Source: Candidatus Fervidibacter sinensis
Lineage (GTDB): Bacteria; Armatimonadota; Fervidibacteria; Fervidibacterales; Fervidibacteraceae
Reading direction: 5' to 3' (one strand)
Assembly (NCBI GenBank): GCA_032161045.1
Contig: JAVHTH010000010.1
DNA: 64,000 nucleotides
Part shown: positions 277-61,926 of the stretch, one piece after another
Layout of the letters: the number at the start of each line of letters is the position of its first letter
Position numbering within the stretch: the stretch's first letter is position 1
Position numbers and translations under genes: made by a program
Notes under the pieces: generated by a model
Told to the model about the DNA's origin: nothing
The model's database searches: none
The model's input: the letters and a program-made list of their open reading frames with translations, nothing else

Positions 277-291
277 TGAACCCAAACCGTC

Positions 292-536
292 GTAGGGGCG
301 GATGAAATCCGCCCAAAAATTTCGGGCAGGTTACACCTGCCCCTACAAATCGTTGCAGGAGCGATGAAATCCGCCCGAAAATTTCGGGCAGGCTTCGCCT
401 GCCCCTACAAACCATCGTAGGGGGCGGATGAAATCCGCCCAAAAATTTCGGGCAGGCTTTGCCTGCCCCTACAAATCGTTGTAGGGGCGGATGAAATCCG
501 CCCAAAAAAATTCGGGTAGGCTTTGCCTGTCCCTAC
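292..536 (+). repeat. Tandem array of four REPIN-like double-hairpin units (family A)
   Basis: Units start at 292, 352, 417 and 481. Each is GTAG+GGGCGGAT-GAA-ATCCGCCC, then linker GAAAATTTC, then GGGCAGGC-TTC-GCCTGCCC+CTAC, i.e. two inverted GTAG-headed palindromes. Confidence 0.85.
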
Positions 537-562
537 AAATTCGTTCAAGGCAGGTGACACAA

Positions 563-15659: not shown

Positions 15660-15714
15660 TGCCTCCTTTCACATTTTGCTTTCTTTAGCCTTGCAGGAAC
15701 ACGATCCTAAGTTC

Positions 15715-17784
15715 CTACCTCAGCCTTGCAATCGTCGTTCCTTGAATTTTCCTTCCTTCATCATCTTGTGCAATTACTCGGACTAAGTATGCACTCGTTG
15801 GCAACACCTCTCCATTGTTCCCCAGACCTTGCCACACAATTTGTTGTTGACCTGCCAAGCGATTCCTACCGCTCTCTAACACCGCTACCTTCCTTCCAGT
15901 CAAGGTCAAAACCTCAACTTGAGTTTGTGCTGGTTTAGTCAATGCAAACTGGATTGATATGCCCCTTCCCCGCATCGGTATCGCCTTCAATCCAACAATG
16001 CGCAAAGGTCGCTCATTGCCCAACTCAGCGATAACCTTGAACCGCCTCTCCGTCTCACCTTCATTCGGCACAAACCGATATTCTGTCTGAGTCCTCATGT
16101 ATCGCCTCGTCCCTGTCGCAAGGTCAACCAAAATCAAACTCACATCCTTTGGAACATGTCCAACTCCATTCCATATCATCGTAACTTCTTTTTGCCTCGT
16201 CCCTCGTCCCCCCTCCCTCGTCCCGAACTTCACAACCACATCCCAAACATGCTGCCTTGCTGCGTTGTTCCTAACATCAACTGCCAAAGGTGCACCATTG
16301 TTGAGCACCAAAACTTGCACATTGCTGCTTCCTTCAGGCGGTTCAGGTGGCAAACCGATTGTAAGTCCTCTTGAACCTTGTGAAACTCCCCAAATTGCCT
16401 CTCCACTCTCGTCACCAACTTTCGCCACCAACTTCACTGTCCATCCATTGCCTTTCACTACTCGTCCCGCGTCCCTCGTCCCCCGTCCCTTGCTTTGGCT
16501 TGGTGGTGGCAGTATAAGTTCGCAGTCGGTATGAGCATAGACCCAATAGCCCTTCCAAGGTTCAAGTTGCCCTTTAACTCCAGGAATGACGCTTGTATCG
16601 TAGACCAGAACATACTTTCCCTTAAACGGGTCATTTTCATCCTGCTCCCATCCCCAAGCGTAATCTTCAATCCAGCCTGCCTGCTGGGCTTGTGCCACAC
16701 TTAACGACTGTTCGCCCTTCCTCACACGAATTCCTTGGCTAATGTCCCAATTAATTGGTTGGGTGAAGGGATTGCTAATAAAATTCCATCCCTTTTGCAA
16801 GGGGATAATGACTTCTTCAGCAAGAGGTTCGCCTACAAGGCTGAAAGGAATCTCTTTGTCCGCCTTAAACCAGTAGCCCTTTCCTGGCTCAATAGCAGCT
16901 CCAACATCTCGGTAACCTTGAATTGAGGGATCCCAAACTTTCATTAGTAGACCATCTAAACCGAGTTCTTGTCGCGTTAAGGATTCCGTTCTTAGGCTTA
17001 AGCCAAATGTTCCGATGCCTTGAGCAAGGCAAGGGACAAACGGTGAGACAGTGAAACTACGCTCTTCACTGCCTTCACTCCATTGTTTCCCATCGTGGGC
17101 ATAAACTTGCCACTTATACTCACCAGCAGATAAGGCGTAGTTCCCTGAAATCCTGAAGTTCGCTATTTCTCCGCTACTGTAACTGAGTTTACTCCAACCA
17201 CTAGTGTCCTTAGTTTGATCAAATTCGTGTATGATTTGTCCATTTCGCTTGATGACTAATTTGTATTTAATAGGATCGCCATCATTGTCAGTTGCTACCA
17301 TTCGGAAAGTTGGAGTGCCGGAGGTCATTGAATCAGGGGCAGGGGAAACTAGTTGTGGAAGCAACGGCGCTTGGTTAACGGTTATCATTCTTGCATTACT
17401 TGCTTCGCTCCATTCTTTCCCGTCAAAGGCGTAAGCAAGCCACAAGTAAGTCCCCGCTGTTAACCTCTGATTTGATGGAACAACAAATGTCGCTTCTTCT
17501 CCACTTGCATACTCACTCTTATCCCAACCTGTCCCCTCTTGTGTTTGGTCAAATACAGCAACAATTTGGTCGCCTTGCTTGACCACTATCTTGAACTTCA
17601 AGTTGTCACTATCAGGATCTGTTGACTTGATTTTGAATGAAAGGGTAGGAGTGACAAAGGAATTGTTTTCTGGAGCAACAAGTTCAGGGGCATTTGGAAC
17701 TTGGTTGACAACGAAACTCCTTTCACTACTGAATTCACTCTCTTGCCCCCTTTCATCTACCGCCTTCGCTCGCCATGTGTCCAT
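15715..17784 (-). CDS. C-terminal portion of the giant S8 protease (separated by a frameshift)
   Basis: Continues the NQxPNxPEL...GxYxWxxxAxD repeat domain that begins in the upstream ORF. C-terminal FlgD-Ig/T9SS-sorting-like beta domain. Carries two GGGACGN modules. Confidence 0.7.
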   Translation of the reverse strand: MDTWRAKAVDERGQESEFSSERSFVVNQVPNAPELVAPENNSFVTPTLSFKIKSTDPDSDNLKFKIVVKQGDQIVAVFDQTQEGTGWDKSEYASGEEATFVVPSNQRLTAGTYLWLAYAFDGKEWSEASNARMITVNQAPLLPQLVSPAPDSMTSGTPTFRMVATDNDGDPIKYKLVIKRNGQIIHEFDQTKDTSGWSKLSYSSGEIANFRISGNYALSAGEYKWQVYAHDGKQWSEGSEERSFTVSPFVPCLAQGIGTFGLSLRTESLTRQELGLDGLLMKVWDPSIQGYRDVGAAIEPGKGYWFKADKEIPFSLVGEPLAEEVIIPLQKGWNFISNPFTQPINWDISQGIRVRKGEQSLSVAQAQQAGWIEDYAWGWEQDENDPFKGKYVLVYDTSVIPGVKGQLEPWKGYWVYAHTDCELILPPPSQSKGRGTRDAGRVVKGNGWTVKLVAKVGDESGEAIWGVSQGSRGLTIGLPPEPPEGSSNVQVLVLNNGAPLAVDVRNNAARQHVWDVVVKFGTREGGRGTRQKEVTMIWNGVGHVPKDVSLILVDLATGTRRYMRTQTEYRFVPNEGETERRFKVIAELGNERPLRIVGLKAIPMRGRGISIQFALTKPAQTQVEVLTLTGRKVAVLESGRNRLAGQQQIVWQGLGNNGEVLPTSAYLVRVIAQDDEGRKIQGTTIARLR
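16197..16225 (-). repeat. (GGGACGN)4 module in frame in the protease gene (sense strand)
   Basis: Reverse complement reads GGGACGA GGGAGGG GGGACGA GGGACGA. Translated GTREGGRGTR. Confidence 0.85.
16461..16489 (-). repeat. (GGGACGN)4 module in frame in the protease gene (sense strand)
   Basis: Reverse complement reads GGGACGG GGGACGA GGGACGC GGGACGA. Translated GRGTRDAGR. Confidence 0.9.
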
Positions 17785-20700
17785 TGCCCGCTTTCAAGAG
17801 GTTTATCAACTGTTACTGAAACATCCGTCCCACTATCAACAAAATCGGTTTCATAGGTCGCAGTCATATTCCCTTTCTTGACTTCAATTACCGCCTTTAC
17901 CTTATCGCCATCTGGATCACTTACTTTCACTGTAAAAGTAACTTGTGGTCTCACTATTGCTTCATCCGCAGGGGTCAAAAGTTCAGGGACATTTGGAACT
18001 TGCGTTACGGTTAAAGTGATAGGGGTAACTACCTGTGGCTTTTCTACATCATTGGAGTTGAACACGAGATTTGCTTTGTGGTTTCCAAGTCCGAGAGAAG
18101 TGGCATCTAAAGTTAATGCCAGATCCACTCCTTCGCCACCCAAAAGACTCCCTGCCAAAGGTGAGTGATCCAGCCAAGGAACACCCCTGATCACAGGAGC
18201 ATACCAGATGTCAGGGACTGCATCAAATGCACCAGCGGAAGAGTCCCAAAATTCACATGCGACATGAAAGTCAACCGGGTTACCGATATCAGAAAGTTTC
18301 ACTCCAACTTCAACGGCACCATTAACTGATTTGAACCAAACAAAGTCAGCCGCATAATCAAAGTTTCCTGTTGACGGATTATAACGATAAACTCCTATCG
18401 TTCCCATACCTCCAAAGAGAATATAGTCCACTCCCATACCGCTTCTCCATCCTACGCCTGTGGCAGCGTTGCGGTCAGTGTCAAGGAAGATGTCTAAGTA
18501 GGTATCATCTGGGTTGAATTCTCCTCCCTCTAATTCAGCACGGAAATAAAGGTAAGTTCCGTCGGATTGGAAGAAAACTTTGCGGATATTGCGGGCATTT
18601 CCATTGAATTCATCTGGGTCAACCATAATCCATCTCCAAGTTCCTGTTGGAGGTTGTCCGTTTTGTAGGGTAGTGATAGGTTTGCCATTTTTGAGCGGAA
18701 TAAGTTCAATGGATTGGTCGGTTTCGGAATTAGGAACAAATTGGAATGGTGCAATTTTTGTTTGTTTTATGGGACGGCTAACTGGTTGGGATGGTGGAGG
18801 AGTCTTAACAGCATTTTGGAAGAGTTGTGCAAGGCGCTTGCTATGAGGTGTGGGCTTGGACATCAACCTTTGGATAACCTGCTGCCATTCCTGCTGCTTT
18901 TTTGAGTCTGTAATTCCTTGTGATGGTCTGAGTGTCATGTTTTGGAAGGACAATGCTTTTTGCTCTCTTTTTTGTTTTGCACGCAAATACTCCTGATACA
19001 ATTTGGAGTTTTCAGGAACAACCATAACACGCCGATTTACAGGTTGGTGGCGAAGCGTTGATAGAGCCGATGTCGCCCCACGAGCGATGAATGTGAGAGA
19101 CCTACCACCAACATTGGAGACATTCATCGCAGTTGTTACCTTAGTGCCTTGGAGTAAAGTTTGCTCCACAAAAATGGGTGTTACAGAGATTTGAGGTCCA
19201 GGCTGTAAGGTCAAAACAATTTTGTAAGTGCAATCAGGACCACCTAAACTTCCCCAATCGCTTGGCATCACACGCAGGTAATATCTTCCAGTTCTTGGCA
19301 ATTGAATGTCAATGTAAGGATCCCATCCCCACCAACCTTGCGACCAAGCAAGTTGTTGTCCCTGCTCGTCATAGAGTGCCAATATAGCAATCAGAGGCGA
19401 ACCCTGTCTTTGAGCAATAACTTCCGCTGTTGCGAAATAACCAGCAGGACTGTCAAAAACAAAGTAATCCGAATCAAATTGAGGGTCAATAACTCCGTCA
19501 ACAGTTTGTCCACTGGCGATAGTTGTTGCGTTTTGAGGCCAATCGCTGTGATCATCCGGTGCATCCTTGACTATCGTTAGCATGTAATTCCCAGTAACAC
19601 CCCAAACATCTTCCACTTTCACATAGAAATCCCCGTCGTGAGGCAAGGGAAAGCGAACGATGCGAGGGTTGTTGCTCCACCATAGCCAATCTGGGAAGTT
19701 ATCATTGTATGCGAGCACTATCTGTCCATCACTGTCGTAGAGGGTCAAAGCAGGATTCTGCCACCATGGATCAAAGGCTTCTACCGAAATTGCCACATAA
19801 TCGCCCAATTGCCCACTGAACTTATAAAAGTCCAAATCATCTGGCGGATTGATCTCACCTAAAATGGTGTCACCATAAGCAATTTGAGTGGCTTGAGCGG
19901 GAGTGTCATTAGGTTCTTGTTCAGCAAGAGTTTTACGGAGGGAAAGGGTGTAAGTAAAATCTGGTCCGCCCACATTAGAACCACCATACGGTATTACCCG
20001 CAGGAAATAACGACCCGACTGGGTAATCTGGTAACTAATGTAGGAATCAAGCCCATAATAGTCATCGTTGAACGCAATGATATTGCCCTGCTCATCGTAA
20101 AGTGCAAGCATAGAGTCTAAAGGCGAGCCTTGCCTTTGGGCGAATACTTCAGCAATTATGAAATCGCCTTGTTCGGCGTAAAACGCAAAGTAATCTGTAT
20201 CGGGTGGTGGATTTATCGTGCCAGAAATGTTTTGTCCGTATGCAATGGGTGTGGCGGTTTGTGTCCAATCCCCATGGTCATCAGGGGAATCCTTGACGAG
20301 GGTGATTGTGTAAAAATGATTTTCGCTTCCACTACCTAAGTAATCTTCCACTTTAATGTAAAACGTCCCATCATGGGGAAGAGGAAAGCGAAGAACAGGA
20401 GACTCCCACCACTCATACCACCAGTAGTCCCAATCCGCATACCAGTCTACCACCAGCCTTGTTTGTCCATCGCTGTTATATAAAGTAACCACCGGATCCA
20501 TTGGGTAACCCAGTGACAAAGCACGAACCCTTATGGTCACTAAATCATCTTTTTGTCCATCAAACTTATAAAAGTCCACATCGCCTGGAACGAGTATCGT
20601 TCCCTGTTTTGATTCTCCATAAGTGATAGGTGTTGCTGTTGAAGGGTCATCATTAGGTTCTGTCGGATCTGCAAGAACTCGCACAGTTGCTGGGTCGCTT

Positions 20701-22718
20701 TCGCCTTCATCGTAAACAACCGTTACTCGGTAAAAGAGAACTAACTGGTTTGGAGGTAAATTGGAGTCAACATAAGATGTTTGATCGGAAGGAAGGCTTG
20801 CAATTAAGTCGTAAGGACCTTGGATTTGTGTTGCCCTGTAAACTCTGTAACCTTGCAAATCTAAAGGTCTAATAAGGGGCTGTCTGGAAGCAAGTCTTCG
20901 GAATCGGTTGTTGTTAAAAACGCTTCCCCACTGAAGCGTCACAGTGTTGTCATCAGAGTTATAAGTTGCAATTAGGTTGGGAACTGAGCGCAACTTTAAG
21001 GTGATGGTGTAATGTCTCATCTTGTTGTCAAATGCTTTGCTGGTCACTTTCAAGTAAAAATCACCCGAATTAGGCAGGACGAATTTAGGAATGAATGGGT
21101 CTTTGCTCCCGTTGTAATCGTCACTTTCTGCTAACACTGTTGAACCGTCGCTATCTAAAATCTGCAAAACAGCATCAATTCCGGAGCCCAATGCTTCGGC
21201 TTGAATTTTTACAGTGATGACCGTATTCTGAGTTGCGCTGAACTTGAATAAGTCTATATCCTCGTCAGGTTCAATCTTACCGAACAAAGTTTCTCCAAAA
21301 GCAATAAAAGTCGCCTGAACAGGAGTATCGTTGGGTTCGTTTTGGTCAGGAGCAAGAGGCAAAATGGATAGAAAAGCATCAATTCGCCCCCAGCCGTAGT
21401 CGTTATCAGGTCCTGGAGCACCCAAATCCACAGCAGAGTTTTTCAAAAGGTTCTTGATATTTTCCACAGTAAGTTCGGTGCCTTGTGCCCTTGCGAAAGA
21501 TTGAATAAGCGCTACTGTCCCCACAACATGTGGACACGCCATTGAAGTGCCACTCCAGTACTCGTAACCTCCCCCAGGCACAGATGAAAGCACAAAATCT
21601 CCTGGGGCTGAAACATCTGGCTTTATGATTTCACCAATGCCAGTCCAGAAGACGGGACCGCGGCTTGAAAAGTCTGCAATATTGTCATTGATATCTGTTG
21701 CCCCCACGCCAAACGCCATTGGGTAGTCGCCAGGGGAGTTCGTTGTTTGAGGAGCGGGGCCGTCATTTCCTATGGAAAAGGCAGGGAAAATGTTAGCAGC
21801 GATCCACGCATTGAGAGCATCTCGGAGGGAAGGATCCATGTCTGGAGAGTGGGAGCCAATATATCCCCATGAGTTGTTGACTACATCGGCGCCATCATCG
21901 GTAGAAGGATCACCATCAGGGTCAAGCATCCATTGCATACAAGCAAACATCCCTTCCTCCGTTGCCCCCTCATCTTCGTCAAACAATCGAGCAACAATTA
22001 AAGTTACCCCAGGAGCAACCCCTATATGTATTCCACTTGCGTTTCCACCAGCGATAGTTCCTGAAACATGTGTTCCATGTCCATGCCAATCAGAAGGTAA
22101 TGAACCTGGGTCGTAAGGGTCAAACCATCCATTTACAGGACGGAGTTTACCTGCTAAGTCAGGATGTGTGGGATCAATTCCTGTATCAATGACACCGACA
22201 GTCACATTGGCGCCTCTAACACCAAAAGTATTCCAAACCTCTGGGACGCGAATTTTTTCCAAACCCCATGTAAAAGCCTGTTGAGGTCTTATCCCTCTTT
22301 GACGGCGGATAGGCTGGATAAGTCTGACTGGTCGTACTTTCTCCACCCTTAATACGGACGGATCTCGTTTTAATGCTTCAATAACTTCTGAATCTGCCTT
22401 GACGGAGATGGCATTGACAATCCACAAAGACCTATATTGGTGGACTTTCCCTTCTTGCTGCCATTGCTGCAAGCGAGCAAGTATGGGGCGTTGGGTTCTC
22501 TGCGCTGTTTGCATTAACAACCTTTTGACTTCGGTTCGGTTACCTTTTACAGATAGGAGATTCGCTTTTTCCCGAAGGAACACAAGGTAAACAGTTTCTT
22601 GGGTCTGCGCCACCAACCCTGCCCATACGGCAATCACAGCTAGCAATAACCCAAGCGACAATACAACCACTGACCGCTTCTCTATTTTTCGTTCCCTCCT
22701 TATAAAGAAGCCGTTCAC
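17757..22718 (-). CDS. N-terminal portion of the giant secreted subtilisin-like (S8) protease with multiple PPC-type domains
   Basis: Catalytic D (VGVIDTGID), H (HGHGTHVSG) and S (SGTSMACPHV). I9-like propeptide. At least five EPND/DDH-type pre-peptidase C-terminal repeats. Start uncertain: GTG at 22718 gives a signal-anchor, while the ORF-track start is 22895. Confidence 0.8.
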   Translation of the reverse strand: MNGFFIRRERKIEKRSVVVLSLGLLLAVIAVWAGLVAQTQETVYLVFLREKANLLSVKGNRTEVKRLLMQTAQRTQRPILARLQQWQQEGKVHQYRSLWIVNAISVKADSEVIEALKRDPSVLRVEKVRPVRLIQPIRRQRGIRPQQAFTWGLEKIRVPEVWNTFGVRGANVTVGVIDTGIDPTHPDLAGKLRPVNGWFDPYDPGSLPSDWHGHGTHVSGTIAGGNASGIHIGVAPGVTLIVARLFDEDEGATEEGMFACMQWMLDPDGDPSTDDGADVVNNSWGYIGSHSPDMDPSLRDALNAWIAANIFPAFSIGNDGPAPQTTNSPGDYPMAFGVGATDINDNIADFSSRGPVFWTGIGEIIKPDVSAPGDFVLSSVPGGGYEYWSGTSMACPHVVGTVALIQSFARAQGTELTVENIKNLLKNSAVDLGAPGPDNDYGWGRIDAFLSILPLAPDQNEPNDTPVQATFIAFGETLFGKIEPDEDIDLFKFSATQNTVITVKIQAEALGSGIDAVLQILDSDGSTVLAESDDYNGSKDPFIPKFVLPNSGDFYLKVTSKAFDNKMRHYTITLKLRSVPNLIATYNSDDNTVTLQWGSVFNNNRFRRLASRQPLIRPLDLQGYRVYRATQIQGPYDLIASLPSDQTSYVDSNLPPNQLVLFYRVTVVYDEGESDPATVRVLADPTEPNDDPSTATPITYGESKQGTILVPGDVDFYKFDGQKDDLVTIRVRALSLGYPMDPVVTLYNSDGQTRLVVDWYADWDYWWYEWWESPVLRFPLPHDGTFYIKVEDYLGSGSENHFYTITLVKDSPDDHGDWTQTATPIAYGQNISGTINPPPDTDYFAFYAEQGDFIIAEVFAQRQGSPLDSMLALYDEQGNIIAFNDDYYGLDSYISYQITQSGRYFLRVIPYGGSNVGGPDFTYTLSLRKTLAEQEPNDTPAQATQIAYGDTILGEINPPDDLDFYKFSGQLGDYVAISVEAFDPWWQNPALTLYDSDGQIVLAYNDNFPDWLWWSNNPRIVRFPLPHDGDFYVKVEDVWGVTGNYMLTIVKDAPDDHSDWPQNATTIASGQTVDGVIDPQFDSDYFVFDSPAGYFATAEVIAQRQGSPLIAILALYDEQGQQLAWSQGWWGWDPYIDIQLPRTGRYYLRVMPSDWGSLGGPDCTYKIVLTLQPGPQISVTPIFVEQTLLQGTKVTTAMNVSNVGGRSLTFIARGATSALSTLRHQPVNRRVMVVPENSKLYQEYLRAKQKREQKALSFQNMTLRPSQGITDSKKQQEWQQVIQRLMSKPTPHSKRLAQLFQNAVKTPPPSQPVSRPIKQTKIAPFQFVPNSETDQSIELIPLKNGKPITTLQNGQPPTGTWRWIMVDPDEFNGNARNIRKVFFQSDGTYLYFRAELEGGEFNPDDTYLDIFLDTDRNAATGVGWRSGMGVDYILFGGMGTIGVYRYNPSTGNFDYAADFVWFKSVNGAVEVGVKLSDIGNPVDFHVACEFWDSSAGAFDAVPDIWYAPVIRGVPWLDHSPLAGSLLGGEGVDLALTLDATSLGLGNHKANLVFNSNDVEKPQVVTPITLTVTQVPNVPELLTPADEAIVRPQVTFTVKVSDPDGDKVKAVIEVKKGNMTATYETDFVDSGTDVSVTVDKPLESGQWTHGERRR

Positions 22719-22746
22719 ACGCTCCCATATACATAGCGTCCGAAAT

Positions 22747-22840
22747 GGTGAAAAGTTAAGGTGAAAAGTTAAGAGGTGGGGTGATTGATGTTCTAAACAT
22801 TGCAGAGTGGTCGTGACATAATAAGGGCAAAAAGTTAAGG
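22747..22840. promoter_or_regulatory. Triple direct repeat GGTGAAAAGTTAA in the divergent protease/sigma intergenic region
   Basis: Exact tandem 13-mers at 22747-22759 and 22760-22772, plus GGCAAAAAGTTAAGG at 22826-22840. Confidence 0.35.
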
Positions 22841-22920
22841 CGTATTTTGACCGCGAAGGGGAGATTTGAATATTGCGGTCACAAGCAAAGAGCACTTAAA
22901 AATACGGGTAATGACAAAGT

Positions 22921-36135: not shown

Positions 36136-36160
36136 GGGAGGGCGAGGCTCCCGCCGAGCC
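36136..36160 (+). repeat. Family-C element GGGAGGGCGAGGCTCCCGCCGAGCC
   Basis: Starts 5 nt after the serpin stop codon. Same sequence family as 15137, 39686 and 58024. Confidence 0.7.
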
Positions 36161-36404
36161 AAAATAGGTGCGGAGTGCGGTGTGCGGAGTGCTGGGTTCT
36201 TCAGCAATTCGGCAAATGGGCAGGTCGGGTTAAAATGCACGCTTGCACTCCTGCAAGATTGCACGAAAAACGCGCAATGAATTTTTTCGGCTCACCAGAG
36301 GTTCGCCCTCCATGTGACTTCTACAAAGCCCAAATTTTCAATCTCGCACTTGAACATCCCCAAAAAATCTCCCGAAGCGCCAAACTTATTTGCGGTGTAA
36401 CGGG

Positions 36405-39400
36405 ATGAGGGAAACAATTCACGCTGTGGTAACTTTGGCTTTGACAGTTGCTGTTTTGATTTTCGCCAACTTCTGTGCGCGAGGTGAGGAAGAAATGGCT
36501 GCGTGGACGGCAAAGTGGATTTGGATTGGCGGAACACGGGATAAGGGACACGGGACGAGTGAGGATGGGTTGCCGAGAAATTTCTACCTTTGTGCCCGCA
36601 AGGTTTTTGATGTGCCAAAGGATTTGCAAGAGGCAATTTTGCGGATAACTGCCGATGCCCGTTATGTGCTTTTCGTCAATGGACAGCGCATTGGCAACGG
36701 TCCAATTCGTGGTTGGCAACATTCGTGGTTTTATGACACCTACGACTTGAAACCCCACTTGCGCCCCGGTGAGCGAAACGCTATCGGCGTTTTGGTTATC
36801 CAACCCGGCGAAACCAACTTCCAATACCCACTCGGTCGTGGTGGGTTGCTGGCGCAGTTGGATATGACCACGAAGCGAGGTCGCAAAATCACCGTCGCCA
36901 CCGACCGAACTTGGAAAGTCACTCCCCATCCCGCTTACGACCGACGGACACCACGAATTTCGTGTCAACAAGGGTTTGTGGAGCATTATGACGGGACGCG
37001 GGACGAGGGACGCGGGACGGAGGATTGGACAATGGCTGAGTTTGACGATAGCAAGTGGCAGAGGGCAGTTGAATTAGGTAAAGTCGGCATCGCACCTTGG
37101 AAAAAGTTAGTGCCACGCAACATACCGTTCTTGACAATGGAGCCAGTTTACCCTGTGCGAATTGTGCGAGTGCGAACGGTTGAGCCCCCAACCATCGTTC
37201 ACAGCATTGACCTTCGTCCCAACCTAAGCCCCGGTGACCGATTGTCCAACCCGCACGGCTTGACAGGCTTGGTGTTGACAGTTGTCCGTGCACCGAAACC
37301 GATGGAGGTTCGCGTGCGCGCTATAGGAGGCATCGGATTTGGTGCCCGCAGGGCAAAGGTCAACGGCGAAGACGCAACTTTTGATGAGCACGGCGCAATT
37401 CTGAAGTTGCGCAAGGGTGACAACTTGGTCGTCTTTGATGTGACGCGGGATTGGTATCACGATTGGTGGTTCACGACGGTTTGGGACGCGGGACGGGGGA
37501 CGAGGGACGGGTTAAAATTTGTCAATCCACTGGGGGAAGGTGAAACGGCGTGGGTGACGGCTGGTCCGTTTACTTCGCGCGATGACGAACTCTTCCAAGC
37601 AGTCTGGAACGCAAAATCTGTCACCGAAATTCGTGCCTTGCAGGCTAAATTCCGCACTCCGCACCCCATACTTCGCACAATCGCACTTGAGCATACTGCT
37701 TCCGACCATGTTTTTGCGAAAGTCGTGCTGGCGAAAGGGACGAAGGACGCGGGACGAGGGACGCGAGTTGAGAACTTGGAAGCGATTTGTCAGCCCAACG
37801 ATGAAGTTGCGGTCATTTATCCGCCACGAAAAGGCGATGTTGAGTTGCTTATTGACTTTGGGCGAGAACTCGTTGGATTTTGGGAATTTGAGGTTGATGC
37901 GCCTGCGGGGACAGTGCTTGATTTTTACGGCTTTGAAGCCATCCATCCAACCGATGACGGCGGTTTTGAAATCCAGCACACTTGGGGCTTGAACAATGTG
38001 ATGCGATACATCGCAAAGGAAGGTTGGCAGCGATACACAAGCATCGTTAGGCGTGGCTTCCGATACCTTGTGCTCACAATTCGGTTTGTAGGGGCGGGTG
38101 ATAACCCACCCGAAACTTACGGGCGGACTTCGTCCGCCCCTACAGGGCTATTTCAAAGGACAGGTGATGACCCGCCCGCAAAAACGGGCGAATTGGCATT
38201 CGCCCCTACGAAGTTGCGTCCCGTCCGCATCAAAACTTTGCGTTGCCTGTTGAACACTTACCCTTACACTGAGCGGGGCGAATTCATGTGCGACGATTGG
38301 AAACTCAACGAGATTTGGCGAATGTGCCGATACACGCTTCGGCTTTGCAGCGAGGACACTTTCGTTGACTGCCCAGCATACGAGCAAACTTTTTGGGTCG
38401 GCGATGCGCGAAACGAGGCACTCATCGCTTACGCGACTTATGGCGGTTACGAACTTGCAAGAAGGTGCTGGCTTTTGGCTGGTCAGTCTCTTTGGCGCTC
38501 GCCGCTTGTTGAAAGTCAAGTCCCAAGCGGTTGGCAAGACATCTTGACTGCATGGGCTTTGCTTTGGGTTTGGGCATGCGAGGAGTATTACCGCTATACA
38601 GGTGACGAGGGATTTTTGCGTGAGGTTTACCCGTTTGTTGCTCAGCAAATGCGCAACATCGCAGAAAAATTCATCCGACCCGACGGCTTATTTGAGATTG
38701 AAGCGTGGAATATGCTGGACTGGGCGCCAATGGACACGCCGCGAAAAGGCGTCGTCACACACCAAAATGCGATTCTCGTTGAAGCCTACAGGCGTGCTGC
38801 GACGATGGCACTTTGGTTGGGCAAGGGTGATGACGCAAAAGAGTTTGAGGCGTTGGCGCAAAAGGTTGAAGATGCAATCAATGAACACCTGTGGGATGAA
38901 CAACGGCAGGCTTTTATTGACGCCATCCACGCTGACGGTCGCCGAAGCCAAGTTTTCAGCGTCCAGACACAAACGATGGTTTACCTTTGCGATGCGGTGA
39001 CTGACGAACGCCGACCAATCATTCGCCAATACCTTTACGACAAGCCAGAAGGGTTCGTTTGGTTTGGAAGTCCGTTTGCGCTTTTCTTCCTGCTTGAAGC
39101 CTACGCAAAAGACGGCGAGTTTCAGCGCATCTTGGACATCATTCGGCGCGAGTGGGGTGCAATGATTGACTACGGCGCGACGACAGCGTGGGAAACTTTG
39201 ACGCCACGAACGAGAAGCCACTGCCACGCGTGGAGCGCAGCACCTGCTTACTTCTTGAGCACTTATGTGCTTGGCGTGAGACCAAAGGGCGTAACACGGG
39301 ACAAGGTGCAAGGGACACGGGTGATGGAATACTTCATTGCGCCAAAGCCTTGCGATTTGAAGTGGGCAAAAGGAAGATTCCCAACACCAAGCGGGACGCG

Positions 39401-39674
39401 GGACGAGGGGCATGGGACGAGAAGAGAAAAAGATTTTGCCGAGCCAAGAGAAATTGAGGTTCGTTGGGAGCGAGATGAGCGAAGGTTTACCCTTTGGTTT
39501 GCGTTGCCTAACGCTGTCAAGGCGGAAATTGTCTTACCACCTATCGTGCCTGAGGGCGCAATCGTTGATGTCAAACTTATCAAGGGCGAAGCGACTAAGC
39601 CGAAGTTTGAAGTTAACCATTGGCGCATCAGTGTGAGTGAAGGAACTCAGGGGAAAGTTGAGGCAAGTTGGTGA
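36405..39674 (+). CDS. GH78-like alpha-L-rhamnosidase family six-hairpin glycosidase carrying multiple in-frame repeat insertions
   Basis: AKWIWIGG N-terminal motif, FVDCPAYEQTFWVGDA and TTAWETL...HCHAWSAAP motifs. ATG at 36405 gives a signal peptide. Confidence 0.7.
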   Translation: MRETIHAVVTLALTVAVLIFANFCARGEEEMAAWTAKWIWIGGTRDKGHGTSEDGLPRNFYLCARKVFDVPKDLQEAILRITADARYVLFVNGQRIGNGPIRGWQHSWFYDTYDLKPHLRPGERNAIGVLVIQPGETNFQYPLGRGGLLAQLDMTTKRGRKITVATDRTWKVTPHPAYDRRTPRISCQQGFVEHYDGTRDEGRGTEDWTMAEFDDSKWQRAVELGKVGIAPWKKLVPRNIPFLTMEPVYPVRIVRVRTVEPPTIVHSIDLRPNLSPGDRLSNPHGLTGLVLTVVRAPKPMEVRVRAIGGIGFGARRAKVNGEDATFDEHGAILKLRKGDNLVVFDVTRDWYHDWWFTTVWDAGRGTRDGLKFVNPLGEGETAWVTAGPFTSRDDELFQAVWNAKSVTEIRALQAKFRTPHPILRTIALEHTASDHVFAKVVLAKGTKDAGRGTRVENLEAICQPNDEVAVIYPPRKGDVELLIDFGRELVGFWEFEVDAPAGTVLDFYGFEAIHPTDDGGFEIQHTWGLNNVMRYIAKEGWQRYTSIVRRGFRYLVLTIRFVGAGDNPPETYGRTSSAPTGLFQRTGDDPPAKTGELAFAPTKLRPVRIKTLRCLLNTYPYTERGEFMCDDWKLNEIWRMCRYTLRLCSEDTFVDCPAYEQTFWVGDARNEALIAYATYGGYELARRCWLLAGQSLWRSPLVESQVPSGWQDILTAWALLWVWACEEYYRYTGDEGFLREVYPFVAQQMRNIAEKFIRPDGLFEIEAWNMLDWAPMDTPRKGVVTHQNAILVEAYRRAATMALWLGKGDDAKEFEALAQKVEDAINEHLWDEQRQAFIDAIHADGRRSQVFSVQTQTMVYLCDAVTDERRPIIRQYLYDKPEGFVWFGSPFALFFLLEAYAKDGEFQRILDIIRREWGAMIDYGATTAWETLTPRTRSHCHAWSAAPAYFLSTYVLGVRPKGVTRDKVQGTRVMEYFIAPKPCDLKWAKGRFPTPSGTRDEGHGTRREKDFAEPREIEVRWERDERRFTLWFALPNAVKAEIVLPPIVPEGAIVDVKLIKGEATKPKFEVNHWRISVSEGTQGKVEASW
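36534..36558 (+). repeat. Decayed GGGACGN-heptad module (in register)
   Basis: GGAACAC GGGATAA GGGACAC GGGACGA. Translated GTRDKGHGTS. Confidence 0.6.
36993..37020 (+). repeat. Perfect (GGGACGN)4 module
   Basis: GGGACGC GGGACGA GGGACGC GGGACGG. Translated GTRDEGRGT. Confidence 0.9.
37483..37511 (+). repeat. Perfect (GGGACGN)4 module
   Basis: GGGACGC GGGACGG GGGACGA GGGACGG. Translated DAGRGTRDG. Confidence 0.9.
37737..37765 (+). repeat. (GGGACGN)4 module with one G-to-A change
   Basis: GGGACGA AGGACGC GGGACGA GGGACGC. Translated GTKDAGRGTR. Confidence 0.85.
38088..38209 (+). repeat. GTAG-headed REPIN-like element(s) lying in frame inside the GH78-like CDS
   Basis: GTAGGGGCGGGTG...GGGCGGAC-TTC-GTCCGCCCCTAC (38088-38143), then ...CGCCCG-caaaaa-CGGGCG and GGGCGAAT-TGGC-ATTCGCCCCTAC (to 38209). 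Translated FVGAGDNPPETYGRTSSAPTGLFQRTGDDPPAKTGELAFAPT. Confidence 0.8.
39298..39325 (+). repeat. Decayed GGGACGN-heptad module (in register)
   Basis: GGGACAA GGTGCAA GGGACAC GGGTGAT. Translated TRDKVQGTRV. Confidence 0.55.
39393..39419 (+). repeat. (GGGACGN)4 module with one altered unit
   Basis: GGGACGC GGGACGA GGGGCAT GGGACGA. Translated GTRDEGHGTR. Confidence 0.85.
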
Positions 39675-39685
39675 TGCAAGTATTC

Positions 39686-39709
39686 GGAGGGCTCGGCTCC
39701 TGCCGAGCC
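39686..39709 (+). repeat. Family-C element GGAGGGCTCGGCTCCTGCCGAGCC
   Basis: Starts 12 nt after the GH78-like stop codon. Confidence 0.7.
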
Positions 39710-39724
39710 GAAAATTGTTGTTTC

Positions 39725-39910
39725 GTAGGGTCGGGCTGCTGTCTGACCGAAAAAATTGGCTGAATGTAGGGCGCGGTTTTACACCGCGCCGAAAAATTTG
39801 TCGGCAGGGTATAAAACCCTGCCCTACAAGGGAAATTTGGCTCAATGTAGGGCGCGGTTTCACACCGCGCCGAAAAAATTTTGTCGGCAGGGTATAAAAT
39901 CCTGCCCTAC
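39725..39910 (+). repeat. Array of variant REPIN units (family A2), 81-nt period
   Basis: Full units at 39766-39827 and 39847-39910: GTAG+GGCGCGGT-loop-ACCGCGCC, linker GAAAAATTTGTC, GGCAGGGT-ATAAA-ACCCTGCC+CTAC. Partial unit at 39725-39765. Confidence 0.8.
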
Positions 39911-39967
39911 AGGTGACGGTTAAGGCGGAGGTTCCTGCAAGCGATTTTGACCCTACTGCGCTAACCT

Positions 39968-61029: not shown

Positions 61030-61035
61030 TTGAAG

Positions 61036-61926
61036 ATGGCGGTACAAAGTTTGAGGGCAATTAGGCGCAAAATTCGGGCTGTGCGAAACTTGCAAAAAAT
61101 CATGACGGCGATGAAGATGGTGGCGGCGGCAAGATTGCGCCGCGTTCAAGACAGAGTGGTCGCCGGCAAACCTTATACCGAAAAGATGCGCTGGCTCGTT
61201 GAAACCCTTGCACCACATTTGCCCGCTATTGAACACCCGCTTTTGCAAGTTCGTCCCGTCCAAAAGCGAGGTTTGGTCGTAATCACAGGGGACAAAGGTT
61301 TGTGTGGGGCTTACAACAACAACATCATTCGCGCCGCTCAAAATTTCATGAGCCAAGATAGTGCGGCACCGTTTTTGCTTTACTGCATTGGACGAAAAGG
61401 TTACGACTTCTTCTCCCGTCGCGGCTATCAAGTCGCTCGCCATCGCCCTCAATTACCGGTCACCGCTTCCTTTGCACAGTTTAAAGCCGTCGCTGAAGAT
61501 ATTGTTCAATGGTTCACGAGCGGCGAGGTTGACGAAATTTTTGTCGCTTACGGAGAATTTGTGAACGCTTTAGTGCAGCGTCCCAAGATTATCCCGCTTC
61601 TGCCAATCAAAACGGACGGGACAGGGCATGAAGGACGGGGGACGAGAGAGACAGAGAGGGAATACATCTTTGAGCCGAAAGCGCCTGAACTGTTGGCGTT
61701 GTTGCTGCCGCGATATGTTGAGCATCTGGTTTACCACATTTTGCTTGAAAGCCTTGCCAGTGAGAACGCCGCCCGGATGAACGCGATGAGTCAAGCAGCC
61801 GATAACGCCGAGGAACTAATCAAGCAACTAACTTTGCAAGCCAACAAAATCCGTCAGTGGAACATCACGAAAGAGTTGCTTGAAATCACGACGGCTGTGG
61901 AAGCGATGAGACGGGCAAGAGATTGA
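61036..61926 (+). CDS. atpG: F1 ATP synthase subunit gamma
   Basis: MAVQSLRAIRRKIRAVRNLQKIMTAMKMVAAA N-terminus and NITKELLEI C-terminus. Confidence 0.95.
   Translation: MAVQSLRAIRRKIRAVRNLQKIMTAMKMVAAARLRRVQDRVVAGKPYTEKMRWLVETLAPHLPAIEHPLLQVRPVQKRGLVVITGDKGLCGAYNNNIIRAAQNFMSQDSAAPFLLYCIGRKGYDFFSRRGYQVARHRPQLPVTASFAQFKAVAEDIVQWFTSGEVDEIFVAYGEFVNALVQRPKIIPLLPIKTDGTGHEGRGTRETEREYIFEPKAPELLALLLPRYVEHLVYHILLESLASENAARMNAMSQAADNAEELIKQLTLQANKIRQWNITKELLEITTAVEAMRRARD
61618..61646 (+). repeat. Partly decayed GGGACGN-heptad module in frame in atpG
   Basis: GGGACAG GGCATGA AGGACGG GGGACGA. Translated GTGHEGRGTR, in the loop between LLPI and YIFEP. Confidence 0.65.

What the first reader, a model, noticed from the sequence alone, without database searches (positions are those of the whole stretch)
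16197..16489. Two near-perfect (GGGACGN)4 modules in the minus-strand protease gene, again G-rich on the sense strand
- The + strand is C-rich at 16197-16225 and 16461-16489.
- On the coding (minus) strand these read GGGACGA GGGAGGG GGGACGA GGGACGA and GGGACGG GGGACGA GGGACGC GGGACGA.
- They are translated as GTREGGRGTR and GRGTRDAGR.
- The orientation follows the direction of transcription rather than the chromosome strand. This points to a transcript-level or non-template-strand role, or to orientation-selective insertion or retention.
Basis: seen in the sequence. Interest (0 to 1): 0.7.

Follow-up and report, generated by a model that had tools for sequence, protein, structure and literature searches.

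The report
In-frame G-rich heptad repeats inside genes
The two G-rich stretches are real copies of a short four-unit repeat (GGG-AC-R-N) that sits in frame inside genes of hot-spring Fervidibacter bacteria and is conserved as DNA rather than as protein; it is a textbook G-quadruplex motif, but its direction does not follow transcription once related genomes are examined.

Summary
On the minus (sense) strand, 16224-16197 and 16489-16462 each read four GGGACGN heptads, in frame, in the C-terminal part of a frameshifted S8 protease gene. The window holds about seven more copies, and its five canonical G-quadruplex motifs are all these modules.

- **Age and setting:** both sites belong to a roughly 330-residue C-terminal cassette shared by many secreted Fervidibacter (Armatimonadota) proteins, and both lie in predicted loops.
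- **Constraint on nucleotides, not peptide:** across 62 cassette copies the G-tracts are 97-99% conserved. Synonymous sites inside the modules are nearly frozen (diversity 0.14 against 0.44 elsewhere). Site A exists in two registers that encode different peptides.
- **GH78 gene:** its modules are lineage-specific insertions that change equally fast at all three codon positions.
- **Orientation:** all nine window copies are sense. In related contigs, antisense copies (read as PVPRPSSPVP) are about as common by gene, roughly 12 sense against 11 antisense.

My best reading is a dispersed repeat, open in all six frames, tolerated in loops and kept at the nucleic-acid level, most plausibly as a G-quadruplex or protein-binding G-tract array. 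Folding at 65-87 °C is doubtful. The closest known relatives are the four-unit G4 heptamer repeats of Xanthomonas and Nostoc, so I class this as a new variant of a known kind.

The parts
16197..16224 (-). Module A: GGGACGA GGGAGGG GGGACGA GGGACGA, translated GTREGGRGTR. It is a canonical G4 motif.
   Evidence: The site is a gap of about 7-10 codons in distant homologues. It falls in a loop between two predicted beta strands, model residues 232-241.
16462..16489 (-). Module B: GGGACGG GGGACGA GGGACGC GGGACGA, translated (K)GRGTRDAGR. It is a canonical G4 motif.
   Evidence: It is conserved at the same site in 39 of 62 cassette copies. It falls in a linker with pLDDT below 50, model residues 143-152.
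15715..17784 (-). Host ORF of 689 aa with a C-terminal FlgD-Ig-like end. Its last ~980 nt (15714-16692) form a cassette shared with other genes.
   Evidence: The cassette is 88-92% identical at nucleotide level to L120, L121 and L146, while the upstream sequence gave no blastn match to them at E<=1e-20.
17757..22895 (-). Upstream ORF with subtilase S8, PPC and I9 domains. It is the N-terminal part of the same gene, cut off by a frameshift at about 17775.
36531..36564 (+). GH78 module site 1, decayed: GGAACAC GGGATAA GGGACAC GGGACGA. It is a 9-codon insertion relative to outgroups.
36993..37019 (+). GH78 module site 2, perfect, translated GTRDEGRGT.
37483..37509 (+). GH78 module site 3, perfect, translated DAGRGTRDG.
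37737..37763 (+). GH78 module site 4, one mismatch, translated GTKDAGRGTR.
39288..39323 (+). GH78 module site 5, decayed in the window (GVTRDKVQGTRV) but a perfect four-heptad module in orthologue L200. It is a 12-codon insertion relative to outgroups.
39393..39419 (+). GH78 module site 6: GGGACGC GGGACGA GGGGCAT GGGACG, translated GTRDEGHGT.
61618..61644 (+). Decayed module (20/24): GGGACAG GGCATGA AGGACGG GGGACG, translated GTGHEGRGTR, in the plus-strand stop-to-stop ORF 61030-61923.

Best explanation
**What it is.** The two sites are copies of a short dispersed DNA repeat of Fervidibacter genomes. It consists of four heptads, GGG-A-C-(G/A)-N, 27-30 bp in all.

**Why it survives inside genes.**
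- The repeat has no stop codon in any of the six frames.
- Every sense frame gives the same hydrophilic peptide cycle, G-T-R-D-x-G-R.
- Every antisense frame gives P-V-P-R-P-S-S.
- It can therefore sit in loop-coding parts of genes in either direction.

**History (shown).** The two copies in this gene were already present in the ancestor of a C-terminal cassette shared by many secreted proteins.

**Constraint (shown).** They are kept at the nucleotide level, not the peptide level. The G-tracts are nearly invariant, synonymous positions are frozen, positions 6 and 7 of the heptad drift, and the same array occurs in two registers relative to the reading frame.

**Function (inferred).**
- What selection or maintenance most consistently preserves is four G3 tracts spaced by 4 nt, the minimal intramolecular G-quadruplex.
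- The most likely role is therefore a G4-type structure or a G-tract array read by a protein.
- In sense copies it would lie on the non-template DNA strand or in the mRNA. In antisense copies it would lie on the template strand.

**Origin (partly shown).** New copies arise as lineage-specific in-frame insertions at sites that already resemble a heptad, for example GAC GGN|CGC. They often cluster within one gene in one orientation.

**How the confidence splits.** About 0.85 that this is a dispersed in-frame heptad repeat conserved at the nucleotide level. About 0.3-0.35 that a folded G-quadruplex is the reason. The figure given is for the whole statement.
For: **Real and non-random**
-.

**Constraint on DNA in the cassette family (62 unique copies from hot-spring metagenomes)**
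- Per-position conservation of the heptad is G 0.99, G 0.97, G 0.99, A 0.86 (otherwise G), C 0.95, G 0.76 (otherwise A), N free.
- Third-position diversity at conserved 4-fold sites is 0.138 in the modules (7 sites) against 0.443 elsewhere (93 sites).
- Gly codons in the modules are fixed: GGG 37/37 and GGA 37/37. Gly columns outside use 3-4 codons. A Fisher test on low-diversity Gly columns gives p = 0.0014.
- Asp is GAC:GAT 59:4 in the modules against 360:635 outside.
- Site A occurs as TTC GGG ACG AGG GAC GGG GGA CGA GGG ACG (FGTRDGGRGT) or as TGG GAC AAG GGA CAC GGG ACA AGG GGC ACG GGA (WDKGHGTRGTG). These are the same heptads shifted by 2 nt.
- A canonical G4 motif is retained in 35/39 copies at site B and 38/44 at site A. 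At most one of the 74 sense-strand G4 motifs in all cassette DNA lies outside these two sites, and there are none on the antisense strand.

**GH78 gene**
- The six module sites are insertions absent from outgroup orthologues.
- Within window, L200 and L204, substitution rates at codon positions 1/2/3 are 0.17/0.19/0.26 in the modules and 0.10/0.05/0.39 in the rest of the gene.
- Module third positions change at 0.26, well below the 4-fold-site rate of 0.48 (Fisher p = 1e-7).

**Other points**
- Recent gains: a clean 33-nt insertion occurs only in L200, and another only in L203.
- Loop location. An Armatimonadota isoleucyl-tRNA synthetase carries the module as a 7-residue insertion in a hairpin turn relative to solved structures.
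- Module codons are not rare, so a rare-codon pause is not the explanation.
Against: **Against a G-quadruplex role**
- ViennaRNA's G4 model gives -8.4 kcal/mol at 37 °C but no G4 at 60 °C or above. Fervidibacter sacchari grows at 65-87.5 °C (PMC11535203). Thermophile G4 motifs have failed to fold in vitro before (PMC6200779).
- The loop bases A and C are also conserved at synonymous sites (GGA 37/37, GAC 59:4). A pure G4 does not require this. It points to sequence-specific recognition or to a copying mechanism.
- Antisense copies put the C-rich strand in the mRNA, so no single RNA-level role fits all copies.

**Against general selection**
- In two GH78 lineages (L201, L205) the modules decay at close to the neutral rate, so any selection is lineage-specific.
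- Short-tract gene conversion among many dispersed copies could mimic selection by preserving the consensus while shuffling N.

**Statistical caveat**
- The cassette copies are paralogues and are not independent. Flanking codons of the same sequences serve as the control, but the p-values are approximate.
Confidence: 0.45

Rival explanations
1. The repeat is selfish or purely mutational and has no function. Heptad arrays arise by slippage or microhomology-templated repair at GGGAC-like seeds. They survive only where they are in frame and land in loops. They look conserved because short gene-conversion tracts among about 27-bp copies keep restoring the consensus.
For: - In other phyla the same heptad forms ordinary homogeneous microsatellites of 4-28 units.
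- There are lineage-specific gains at seed-like sites.
- The modules decay in L201 and L205.
- The same GH78 gene also carries an in-frame REP-like GTAGGGG...CCCCTAC element that all orthologues lack. Coding sequence in this genome is evidently permissive to short repeat invasion.
- N positions differ freely between orthologous copies: a hand count from the sequences gives about 16 of 24 between window and L200.
Against: - The unit number is four at nearly every module site in the 62 cassette copies (one or two copies carry an extra or decayed unit), and neighbouring N positions are heterogeneous. Slippage does not produce this.
- Synonymous diversity jumps from about 0.1 inside the module to 0.5-0.7 in the codons immediately flanking it. 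Conversion tracts would have to stop exactly at the module edges.
- G-tracts are better kept than positions 6 and 7.
Confidence: 0.3
2. The module is a binding-site array for a protein or RNA that recognises GGGAC at 7-nt spacing, for example a multimeric nucleic-acid-binding protein. It is not a folded G-quadruplex.
For: - GGGAC, not only GGG, is conserved at synonymous sites.
- The copy number is fixed at four.
- Both orientations occur, which double-stranded DNA recognition would tolerate.
- The G4 is predicted to be unstable at growth temperature.
Against: - No candidate binding protein was identified.
- A->G at position 4, which lengthens the G-tract, is the main tolerated change there (13%), and position 6 drifts. 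This fits tract preservation better than base-specific reading.
- There is no match to any Rfam family.
Confidence: 0.12
3. The peptide is what matters. GTRDxGRGT would be a selected flexible Arg/Gly-rich surface loop, linker or processing site of secreted proteins, and the DNA periodicity would be a by-product.
For: - The modules lie in predicted loops or linkers.
- Several hosts are secreted enzymes.
- The peptide is well conserved in the cassette family.
Against: - Synonymous sites are frozen and codon choice is fixed against the local usage.
- In GH78 all three codon positions evolve alike, and amino-acid identity in the modules (0.72) is lower than in the rest of the protein (0.90).
- Two registers give different peptides at the same site.
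- Antisense copies encode a quite different Pro-rich peptide.
- Cytoplasmic housekeeping genes also host it, for example IleRS and an ABC ATPase.
Confidence: 0.05
4. One reading: orientation is set by transcription, with the G-rich strand always the sense or non-template strand. This would imply an mRNA or R-loop role, or transcription-coupled insertion.
For: - Nine of nine window copies are sense, including those in the minus-strand gene.
- All cassette-family copies are sense.
- Copies within one gene usually share orientation.
Against: - By gene the split is about 12 sense to 11 antisense in Fervidibacter and other Armatimonadota DNA.
- Two of the antisense hosts tested have clear Pfam domains, DUF255/thioredoxin and TPR.
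- Inverted pairs occur inside single ORFs, in L087 and in the L200 GH20 gene.
Confidence: 0.05

Closest known systems
G-quadruplex-forming heptameric simple sequence repeats of Xanthomonas (GGGAATC) and Nostoc (GGGGA(C/T)T), Rehm et al. 2015, PMC4692102
   Same: - The unit is seven bases long and begins with a G3+ tract.
- Copies are dispersed through the genome.
- There is a marked preference for exactly four units, the minimum for an intramolecular G4.
- Copies occur on both strands.
   Different: - The unit sequence differs (GGGAC[G/A]N).
[quoted passage not shown] Here every Fervidibacter copy seen lies in frame inside an ORF.
- The seventh base differs between neighbouring units.
- The host is a hyperthermophile.
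- Nucleotide-level conservation across paralogues is shown here.
- G4 folding was shown in vitro for those repeats. It is untested here.
Rickettsia palindromic elements and other short repeats that insert in frame into protein-coding genes
   Same: A short dispersed repeat is tolerated inside ORFs because it keeps the frame and encodes surface-loop peptides. It occurs in housekeeping and non-housekeeping genes alike.
   Different: - Those elements are about 100-150 bp palindromes.
- This module is a 27-30 bp direct heptad array with no self-complementarity.
- Only occasional inverted pairs of modules (L087, L200) resemble a palindrome.
REP/BIME elements with a GTAG head, linked to RAYT transposases (the RAYT link is from my own knowledge)
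   Same: Both are short GC-rich dispersed repeats. Elements with the GTAG head and GC-rich hairpin of REPs are present in the same window (283-545, 39752-39911), and one sits in frame in the same GH78 gene.
   Different: The heptad module has no GTAG head and no hairpin. No transposase association was seen or tested.
Contingency-locus microsatellites (phase variation by slippage of repeat units whose length is not a multiple of three)
   Same: It is a tandem repeat inside an ORF with a unit length (7) that is not divisible by 3.
   Different: All 62 cassette copies analysed keep the frame and nearly all have four units, though copies with an internal stop had been excluded when the set was built. 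Neighbouring units differ at N, which suppresses slippage.

Membership tests
Canonical putative quadruplex sequence (G3+N1-7)x3G3+ | Four runs of at least 3 G separated by loops of 1-7 nt | tested here: met
   Both sites match. All five matches in the window are heptad modules.
Canonical putative quadruplex sequence (G3+N1-7)x3G3+ | Folds into a G-quadruplex under physiological conditions | tested here: inconclusive
   ViennaRNA predicts a G4 in the minimum-energy structure at 37 °C (-8.36 kcal/mol) but none at 60-80 °C.
G4-forming heptameric SSRs (Rehm et al. 2015) | Heptanucleotide unit with a G3-4 tract, dispersed in many copies | tested here: met
G4-forming heptameric SSRs (Rehm et al. 2015) | Preference for four units | tested here: met
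   All perfect Fervidibacter and other Armatimonadota hits, and all window copies, have four units.
G4-forming heptameric SSRs (Rehm et al. 2015) | [quoted passage not shown] | tested here: not met
   The perfect copies in ~50% GC Fervidibacter-type DNA, where the context could be called, lie within long stop-free reading frames, about half of them on the coding strand.
G4-forming heptameric SSRs (Rehm et al. 2015) | Unit sequence GGGAATC or GGGGA(C/T)T | tested here: not met
   The unit here is GGGAC(G/A)N.
REP / RAYT-type palindromic repeat | GTAG head followed by a GC-rich hairpin | tested here: not met
   The module is a direct heptad array. The window copies have no inverted partner: they are direct repeats 265 nt apart. 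Elements with a GTAG head and GC-rich hairpin are a separate repeat family in the window.
Phase-variable contingency SSR | Unit-number polymorphism that shifts the reading frame | tested here: not met
   All 62 unique cassette copies analysed are in frame and nearly all have four units; the indels seen are multiples of 3 nt. Frame-disrupted copies were filtered out of that set, so the test is partial.
Known structured RNA family (Rfam 15) | Match to a curated covariance model | tested here: not met
   There are no hits at gathering score in the whole window and none at E<=1 in 16000-16700.

The most novel reading that the evidence does not exclude
(GGGACRN)4 may be a functional cassette that is installed and maintained inside protein-coding genes by a dedicated mechanism shared across distant phyla (Armatimonadota, Gemmatimonadota, Acidobacteriota).
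- Possible mechanisms are G4-dependent recombination or gene conversion that homogenises the shared C-terminal cassette, or an enzyme that writes or reads the heptads.
- A built-in polarity is visible in inverted pairs: the G-arm lies 5' of the C-arm in 22 cases and 3' of it in 4.
- If so, this would be a class of coding-sequence-resident nucleic-acid element that has not been described.
Probability: 0.2. Interest if true: 0.8.

Novelty: new variant of a known kind. Interest (0 to 1): 0.6.

Why it matters
- **An unusual place for a G4 motif.** Bacterial G4 motifs and heptamer repeats have been described mainly between genes. Here a minimal G4 motif lives in frame inside genes, essential ones included. 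It is conserved at synonymous sites while the peptide it encodes drifts or even changes register.
- **A clean test system.** If the constraint is real selection, this is a natural case of overlapping protein and nucleic-acid codes in a cultivated hyperthermophile. It gives a direct way to ask whether G-quadruplexes can matter at 80 °C.
- **Still useful if there is no function.** It would then be a clear example of a repeat whose design, with no stop in any of six frames and loop-friendly peptides in both orientations, lets it colonise coding sequence.
- **Practical value.** Genome annotators and enzyme engineers working on Fervidibacter glycoside hydrolases could probably trim these loop insertions.

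Tried and rejected
- **Chance or composition.** Rejected by shuffles.
- **Rare-codon pause.** The module codons each make up 19-25% of their family, or 55% for GAC, so this is rejected.
- **Known RNA family.** None found.
- **Phase-variable microsatellite.** No frame-shifting unit-number variation was seen in 62 copies.
- **Hairpin or REP arm in this gene.** The two copies are direct repeats and no C-rich partner lies nearby.
- **Replication-strand rule.**
  - The window copies lie on both DNA strands within a stretch of monotonic GC skew.
  - PD1 locus L087 has both orientations within about 100 nt.
- **Conditional synonymous test in GH78.** I judged it biased, because conditioning on an unchanged amino acid in a fast-evolving loop enriches for unmutated codons. 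I replaced it with the unconditioned codon-position test.
- **Source record.** The exact 689-aa product is not in the contig index. The organism is therefore inferred only from homologues: Fervidibacter, Armatimonadota.
- **Literature.** The heptad strings appear in no paper of the held library.
Full report
**1. The observation**

- Read on the minus strand, 16224->16197 is GGGACGA GGGAGGG GGGACGA GGGACGA and 16489->16462 is GGGACGG GGGACGA GGGACGC GGGACGA.
- Both lie in frame in ORF 15715..17784(-) and are translated GTREGGRGTR and (K)GRGTRDAGR.
- That ORF ends in a FlgD-Ig-like domain. It overlaps by 28 nt the end of a 1712-aa ORF carrying subtilase S8, PPC and I9 domains.
- At the junction the sequence CAATGGACACATGGCGAGCG reads ...SGQWTHGERRR* in one frame and MDTWRAKAVDERGQ in the other. 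This suggests one gene split by a 2-nt indel, so 'protease gene' is a fair description.
- The pattern is far beyond chance.
  - GGGACGNGGGACG with at most 1 mismatch gives 19 hits against 0.24 expected.
  - A phased four-heptad score of at least 19/24 gives 8 hits against 0 in shuffles.
  - All five canonical G-quadruplex motifs in the 64 kb are these modules.

**2. Other copies in the window**

- The GH78 alpha-L-rhamnosidase gene (36390..39674, +) has six module sites.
  - Near-perfect: 36993, 37483, 37737 and 39393.
  - Decayed: 36531 and 39288.
- A further decayed copy lies at 61618 in a plus-strand ORF.
- All nine copies are G-rich on the sense strand.
- Twenty-five of 27 large ORFs are on the plus strand and GC skew is positive throughout. 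The protease gene is the one informative case where gene and chromosome orientation disagree, and there the modules follow the gene.

**3. A property of the sequence itself**

- Seven and three are coprime, so all three sense frames of (GGGACGN)n give the same cyclic peptide G-T-R-D-x-G-R.
- All three antisense frames give P-V-P-R-P-S-S.
- No frame on either strand can contain a stop codon. This follows directly from the sequence.
- Peptide and DNA periodicity are therefore confounded, and only codon-level tests can separate them.

**4. Organism and gene family**

- Homologues of the 689-aa ORF and of the GH78 gene come from hot-spring metagenomes and from genome bins named Candidatus Fervidibacter or Armatimonadota.
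- The last ~330 residues of the host protein are a cassette. It is found at the C-terminus of proteins with many different N-terminal parts: carboxylesterase, WD40, VWA, PPC and CARDB.
- At nucleotide level the window's cassette (15714-16692) is 88-92% identical to that of other contigs, while the upstream sequence gave no blastn match to them at E<=1e-20.
- Most cassette homologues carry KGRGTRGEGR and GTRDGGRGTSERKE at the same two sites.
- In distant homologues, site A is a gap of 7-10 codons and site B holds unrelated sequence of similar length.
- In an AlphaFold model (mean pLDDT 66):
  - site B falls in a low-confidence linker, residues 141-157;
  - site A falls in the loop between strands 222-231 and 245-250.

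**5. Is the DNA or the peptide conserved?**

A metagenome scan with the cassette alignment gave 80 loci (about 730 kb) and 62 unique cassette sequences.

- In the 37 copies with clear modules, third-position diversity at conserved 4-fold sites is 0.138 inside the modules against 0.443 outside.
- Gly codons inside the modules are fixed: GGG 37/37, GGA 37/37, and GGA 35 with GGG 2. Gly columns elsewhere spread over three or four codons. The Fisher test gives p = 0.0014.
- Asp is GAC:GAT 59:4 in the modules against 360:635 outside.
- Codons touching the module edges are already highly variable.
- Heptad positions are conserved at 0.99, 0.97, 0.99, 0.86, 0.95 and 0.76, with N free. The main changes are A->G at position 4 and G->A at position 6.
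- Site A occurs in two registers that differ by 2 nt and encode FGTRDGGRGT or WDKGHGTRGTG. The G3N4 periodicity is kept in both.
- A canonical G4 motif survives in 35/39 copies at site B and 38/44 at site A. At most one of the 74 sense-strand G4 motifs in all cassette DNA lies outside these two sites, and there are none on the antisense strand.

**6. The GH78 series**

- Orthologues of 98-72% identity keep the module sites. Orthologues of 62% identity or less, and more distant outgroups, have gaps there.
- I aligned the DNA of eight orthologues. Within window, L200 and L204 the results are as follows.
  - Module codons change at 0.17/0.19/0.26 for codon positions 1/2/3.
  - The rest of the gene changes at 0.10/0.05/0.39.
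  - 4-fold sites change at 0.48.
- So the peptide is less constrained than the rest of the protein. Module third positions, which are almost all synonymous, change at 0.26 against 0.48 at 4-fold sites (p about 1e-7).
- In L201 and L205 the modules have decayed at close to the neutral rate.
- New copies still arise. L200 has a clean 33-nt insertion (GTRDMGHGTRIE) at GAC GGN|CGC that all others lack, and L203 has one at another site.

**7. Orientation beyond the window**

- In the Fervidibacter and other Armatimonadota hits the context is as follows.
  - Sense: L003, L047, L075 (isoleucyl-tRNA synthetase), L079 (ABC ATPase), L086, L110.
  - Antisense: L011, L087, L111, L112.
- The antisense copies are translated PVPRPSSPVP, LVPRPSSPVP and RVPRPPSRVP.
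- The antisense hosts L011 (DUF255/thioredoxin protein) and L111 (TPR protein) have clear Pfam domains; L112 gave only a sub-threshold match and L154 none.
- In about 940 kb of Fervidibacter-like contigs, copies outside the cassette and GH78 families add about 5 sense and 7 antisense genes.
- By gene the total is about 12 to 11. Copies within one gene usually agree in orientation.
- PD1 locus L087 encodes a distant cassette homologue. It carries a sense module, an antisense module 69 nt downstream and a third sense copy.
- Neither transcription nor the replication strand therefore fixes the orientation.

**8. Can it fold?**

- ViennaRNA with G4 energies places a three-tetrad quadruplex (-8.36 kcal/mol) in the minimum-energy structure at 37 °C for five of six modules taken alone, and for four of six when 40-nt flanks are included. 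It places none at 60-80 °C.
- F. sacchari grows at 65-87.5 °C (PMC11535203).
- G4 motifs from Thermales did not fold in vitro (PMC6200779).
- The structural reading therefore rests on the conservation pattern, not on thermodynamics.
- The conservation of the loop bases A and C fits sequence-specific reading or a copying process at least as well.

**9. Comparison with what is known**

- The closest described system is the set of G4-forming heptamer repeats of Xanthomonas and Nostoc.
  - Shared features: a seven-base unit, a G-tract, dispersal, and a preference for four units.
  - Difference: those repeats are mostly intergenic and under-represented on the coding strand in ORFs (PMC4692102).
- Here the copies are in frame inside ORFs, heterogeneous at N, and conserved at synonymous sites in a hyperthermophile.
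- In-frame colonisation of genes recalls Rickettsia palindromic elements (my own knowledge), but the module is not a palindrome.
- No paper in the held library contains the heptad strings, and no Rfam family matches.

**10. Verdict**

- The finding is real and is more than a curiosity of one gene.
- Its proposed rule, that the G-rich strand is the sense strand, holds in this window only.
- **Shown:**
  - a dispersed in-frame heptad repeat;
  - nucleotide-level rather than peptide-level conservation in two gene families;
  - location in loops;
  - both orientations;
  - recent gains and lineage-specific decay.
- **Inferred:** it acts as, or is maintained because of, a G4-type G-tract array.
- A neutral origin with concerted evolution remains a serious rival.

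Noticed in passing
window 17757-17790 (minus strand): The S8 protease ORF and the 689-aa ORF overlap by 28 nt in different frames. The sequence CAATGGACACATGGCG looks like ...SGQW-T-WRAKAVDE... with two extra bases (CA). This points to a frameshifted gene or a sequencing error.
   Followed up: partly
window 38087-38210 (+), inside the GH78 ORF: A ~120-nt element, GTAGGGGCGGGTGATAACCCACCC...GGGCGGACTTCGTCCGCCCCTAC..., of the same REP-like GTAG...CTAC hairpin family as the intergenic arrays, is inserted in frame (about 30-40 residues, ...GRTSSAPTGLFQRTGDDPPAKTGELAFAPTKL). It is absent from all eight orthologues aligned.
   Followed up: partly
window 283-545 and 39752-39911: Tandem arrays with periods of 64 and 81 nt are built from paired GC-rich hairpins with a GTAGGG head and a CCCTAC tail. 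They look like REP/BIME-type elements.
   Followed up: no
window 36140-36160, 39686-39710 and 39440-39460: A third short motif, GGCTC(G/C)GC...GCCGAGCC, flanks the GH78 gene on both sides. It also seems to be embedded in frame next to module site 6 (KDFAEPRE; EGEASAEPRE in L200).
   Followed up: no
window 15714-16692 compared with L120, L121 and L146: The last ~980 nt of the protease gene are 88-92% identical in DNA to the 3' ends of genes on other contigs, and blastn found no match upstream of that point. This suggests a C-terminal cassette homogenised among paralogues or moved between genes.
   Followed up: partly
L004, L019, L034, L039, L053, L074, L087, L090, L100, L103, L106, L109, L116, L200 and others: Modules often occur as inverted pairs 11-215 nt apart. 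The G-rich arm lies 5' of the C-rich arm in 22 cases and 3' of it in 4. This polarity is the same on both strands. Some pairs flank native gene segments in Gemmatimonadales that look like rarA and rsmB, identified by eye and not confirmed by Pfam.
   Followed up: partly
L033, L085, L010, L048, L066, L097 and others (non-Armatimonadota): In other phyla the same heptad forms homogeneous microsatellites, (GGGACGT)n, (GGGACGG)n or (GGGACGA)n, of up to 28 units. This is unlike the fixed four heterogeneous units seen in Fervidibacter and in many Gemmatimonadales hits.
   Followed up: no
L075 5898-5924 (Armatimonadota genome bin): An isoleucyl-tRNA synthetase carries the module (MGRGTRDEGR) as a 7-residue insertion in a hairpin of the editing-domain region, relative to S. 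aureus IleRS structure 1ffy.
   Followed up: yes
L204 (GH78 orthologue) and cassette copies L129, L141, L144, L147: Some lineages carry the variant GGGACAN in all units of a module. Examples are GGGACAG GGGACAC GGGACAA GGGACAC in the L204 GH78 gene and GGGACGA GGGACAA GGGACAG GGGACAG at site B of the cassette copies. These are parallel G->A changes at heptad position 6 with intact G-tracts.
   Followed up: partly
window 16405-16434: A 13-nt tandem repeat (ACTTTCGCCACCA, 2.3 copies on the plus strand) lies between the two modules inside the same ORF.
   Followed up: no
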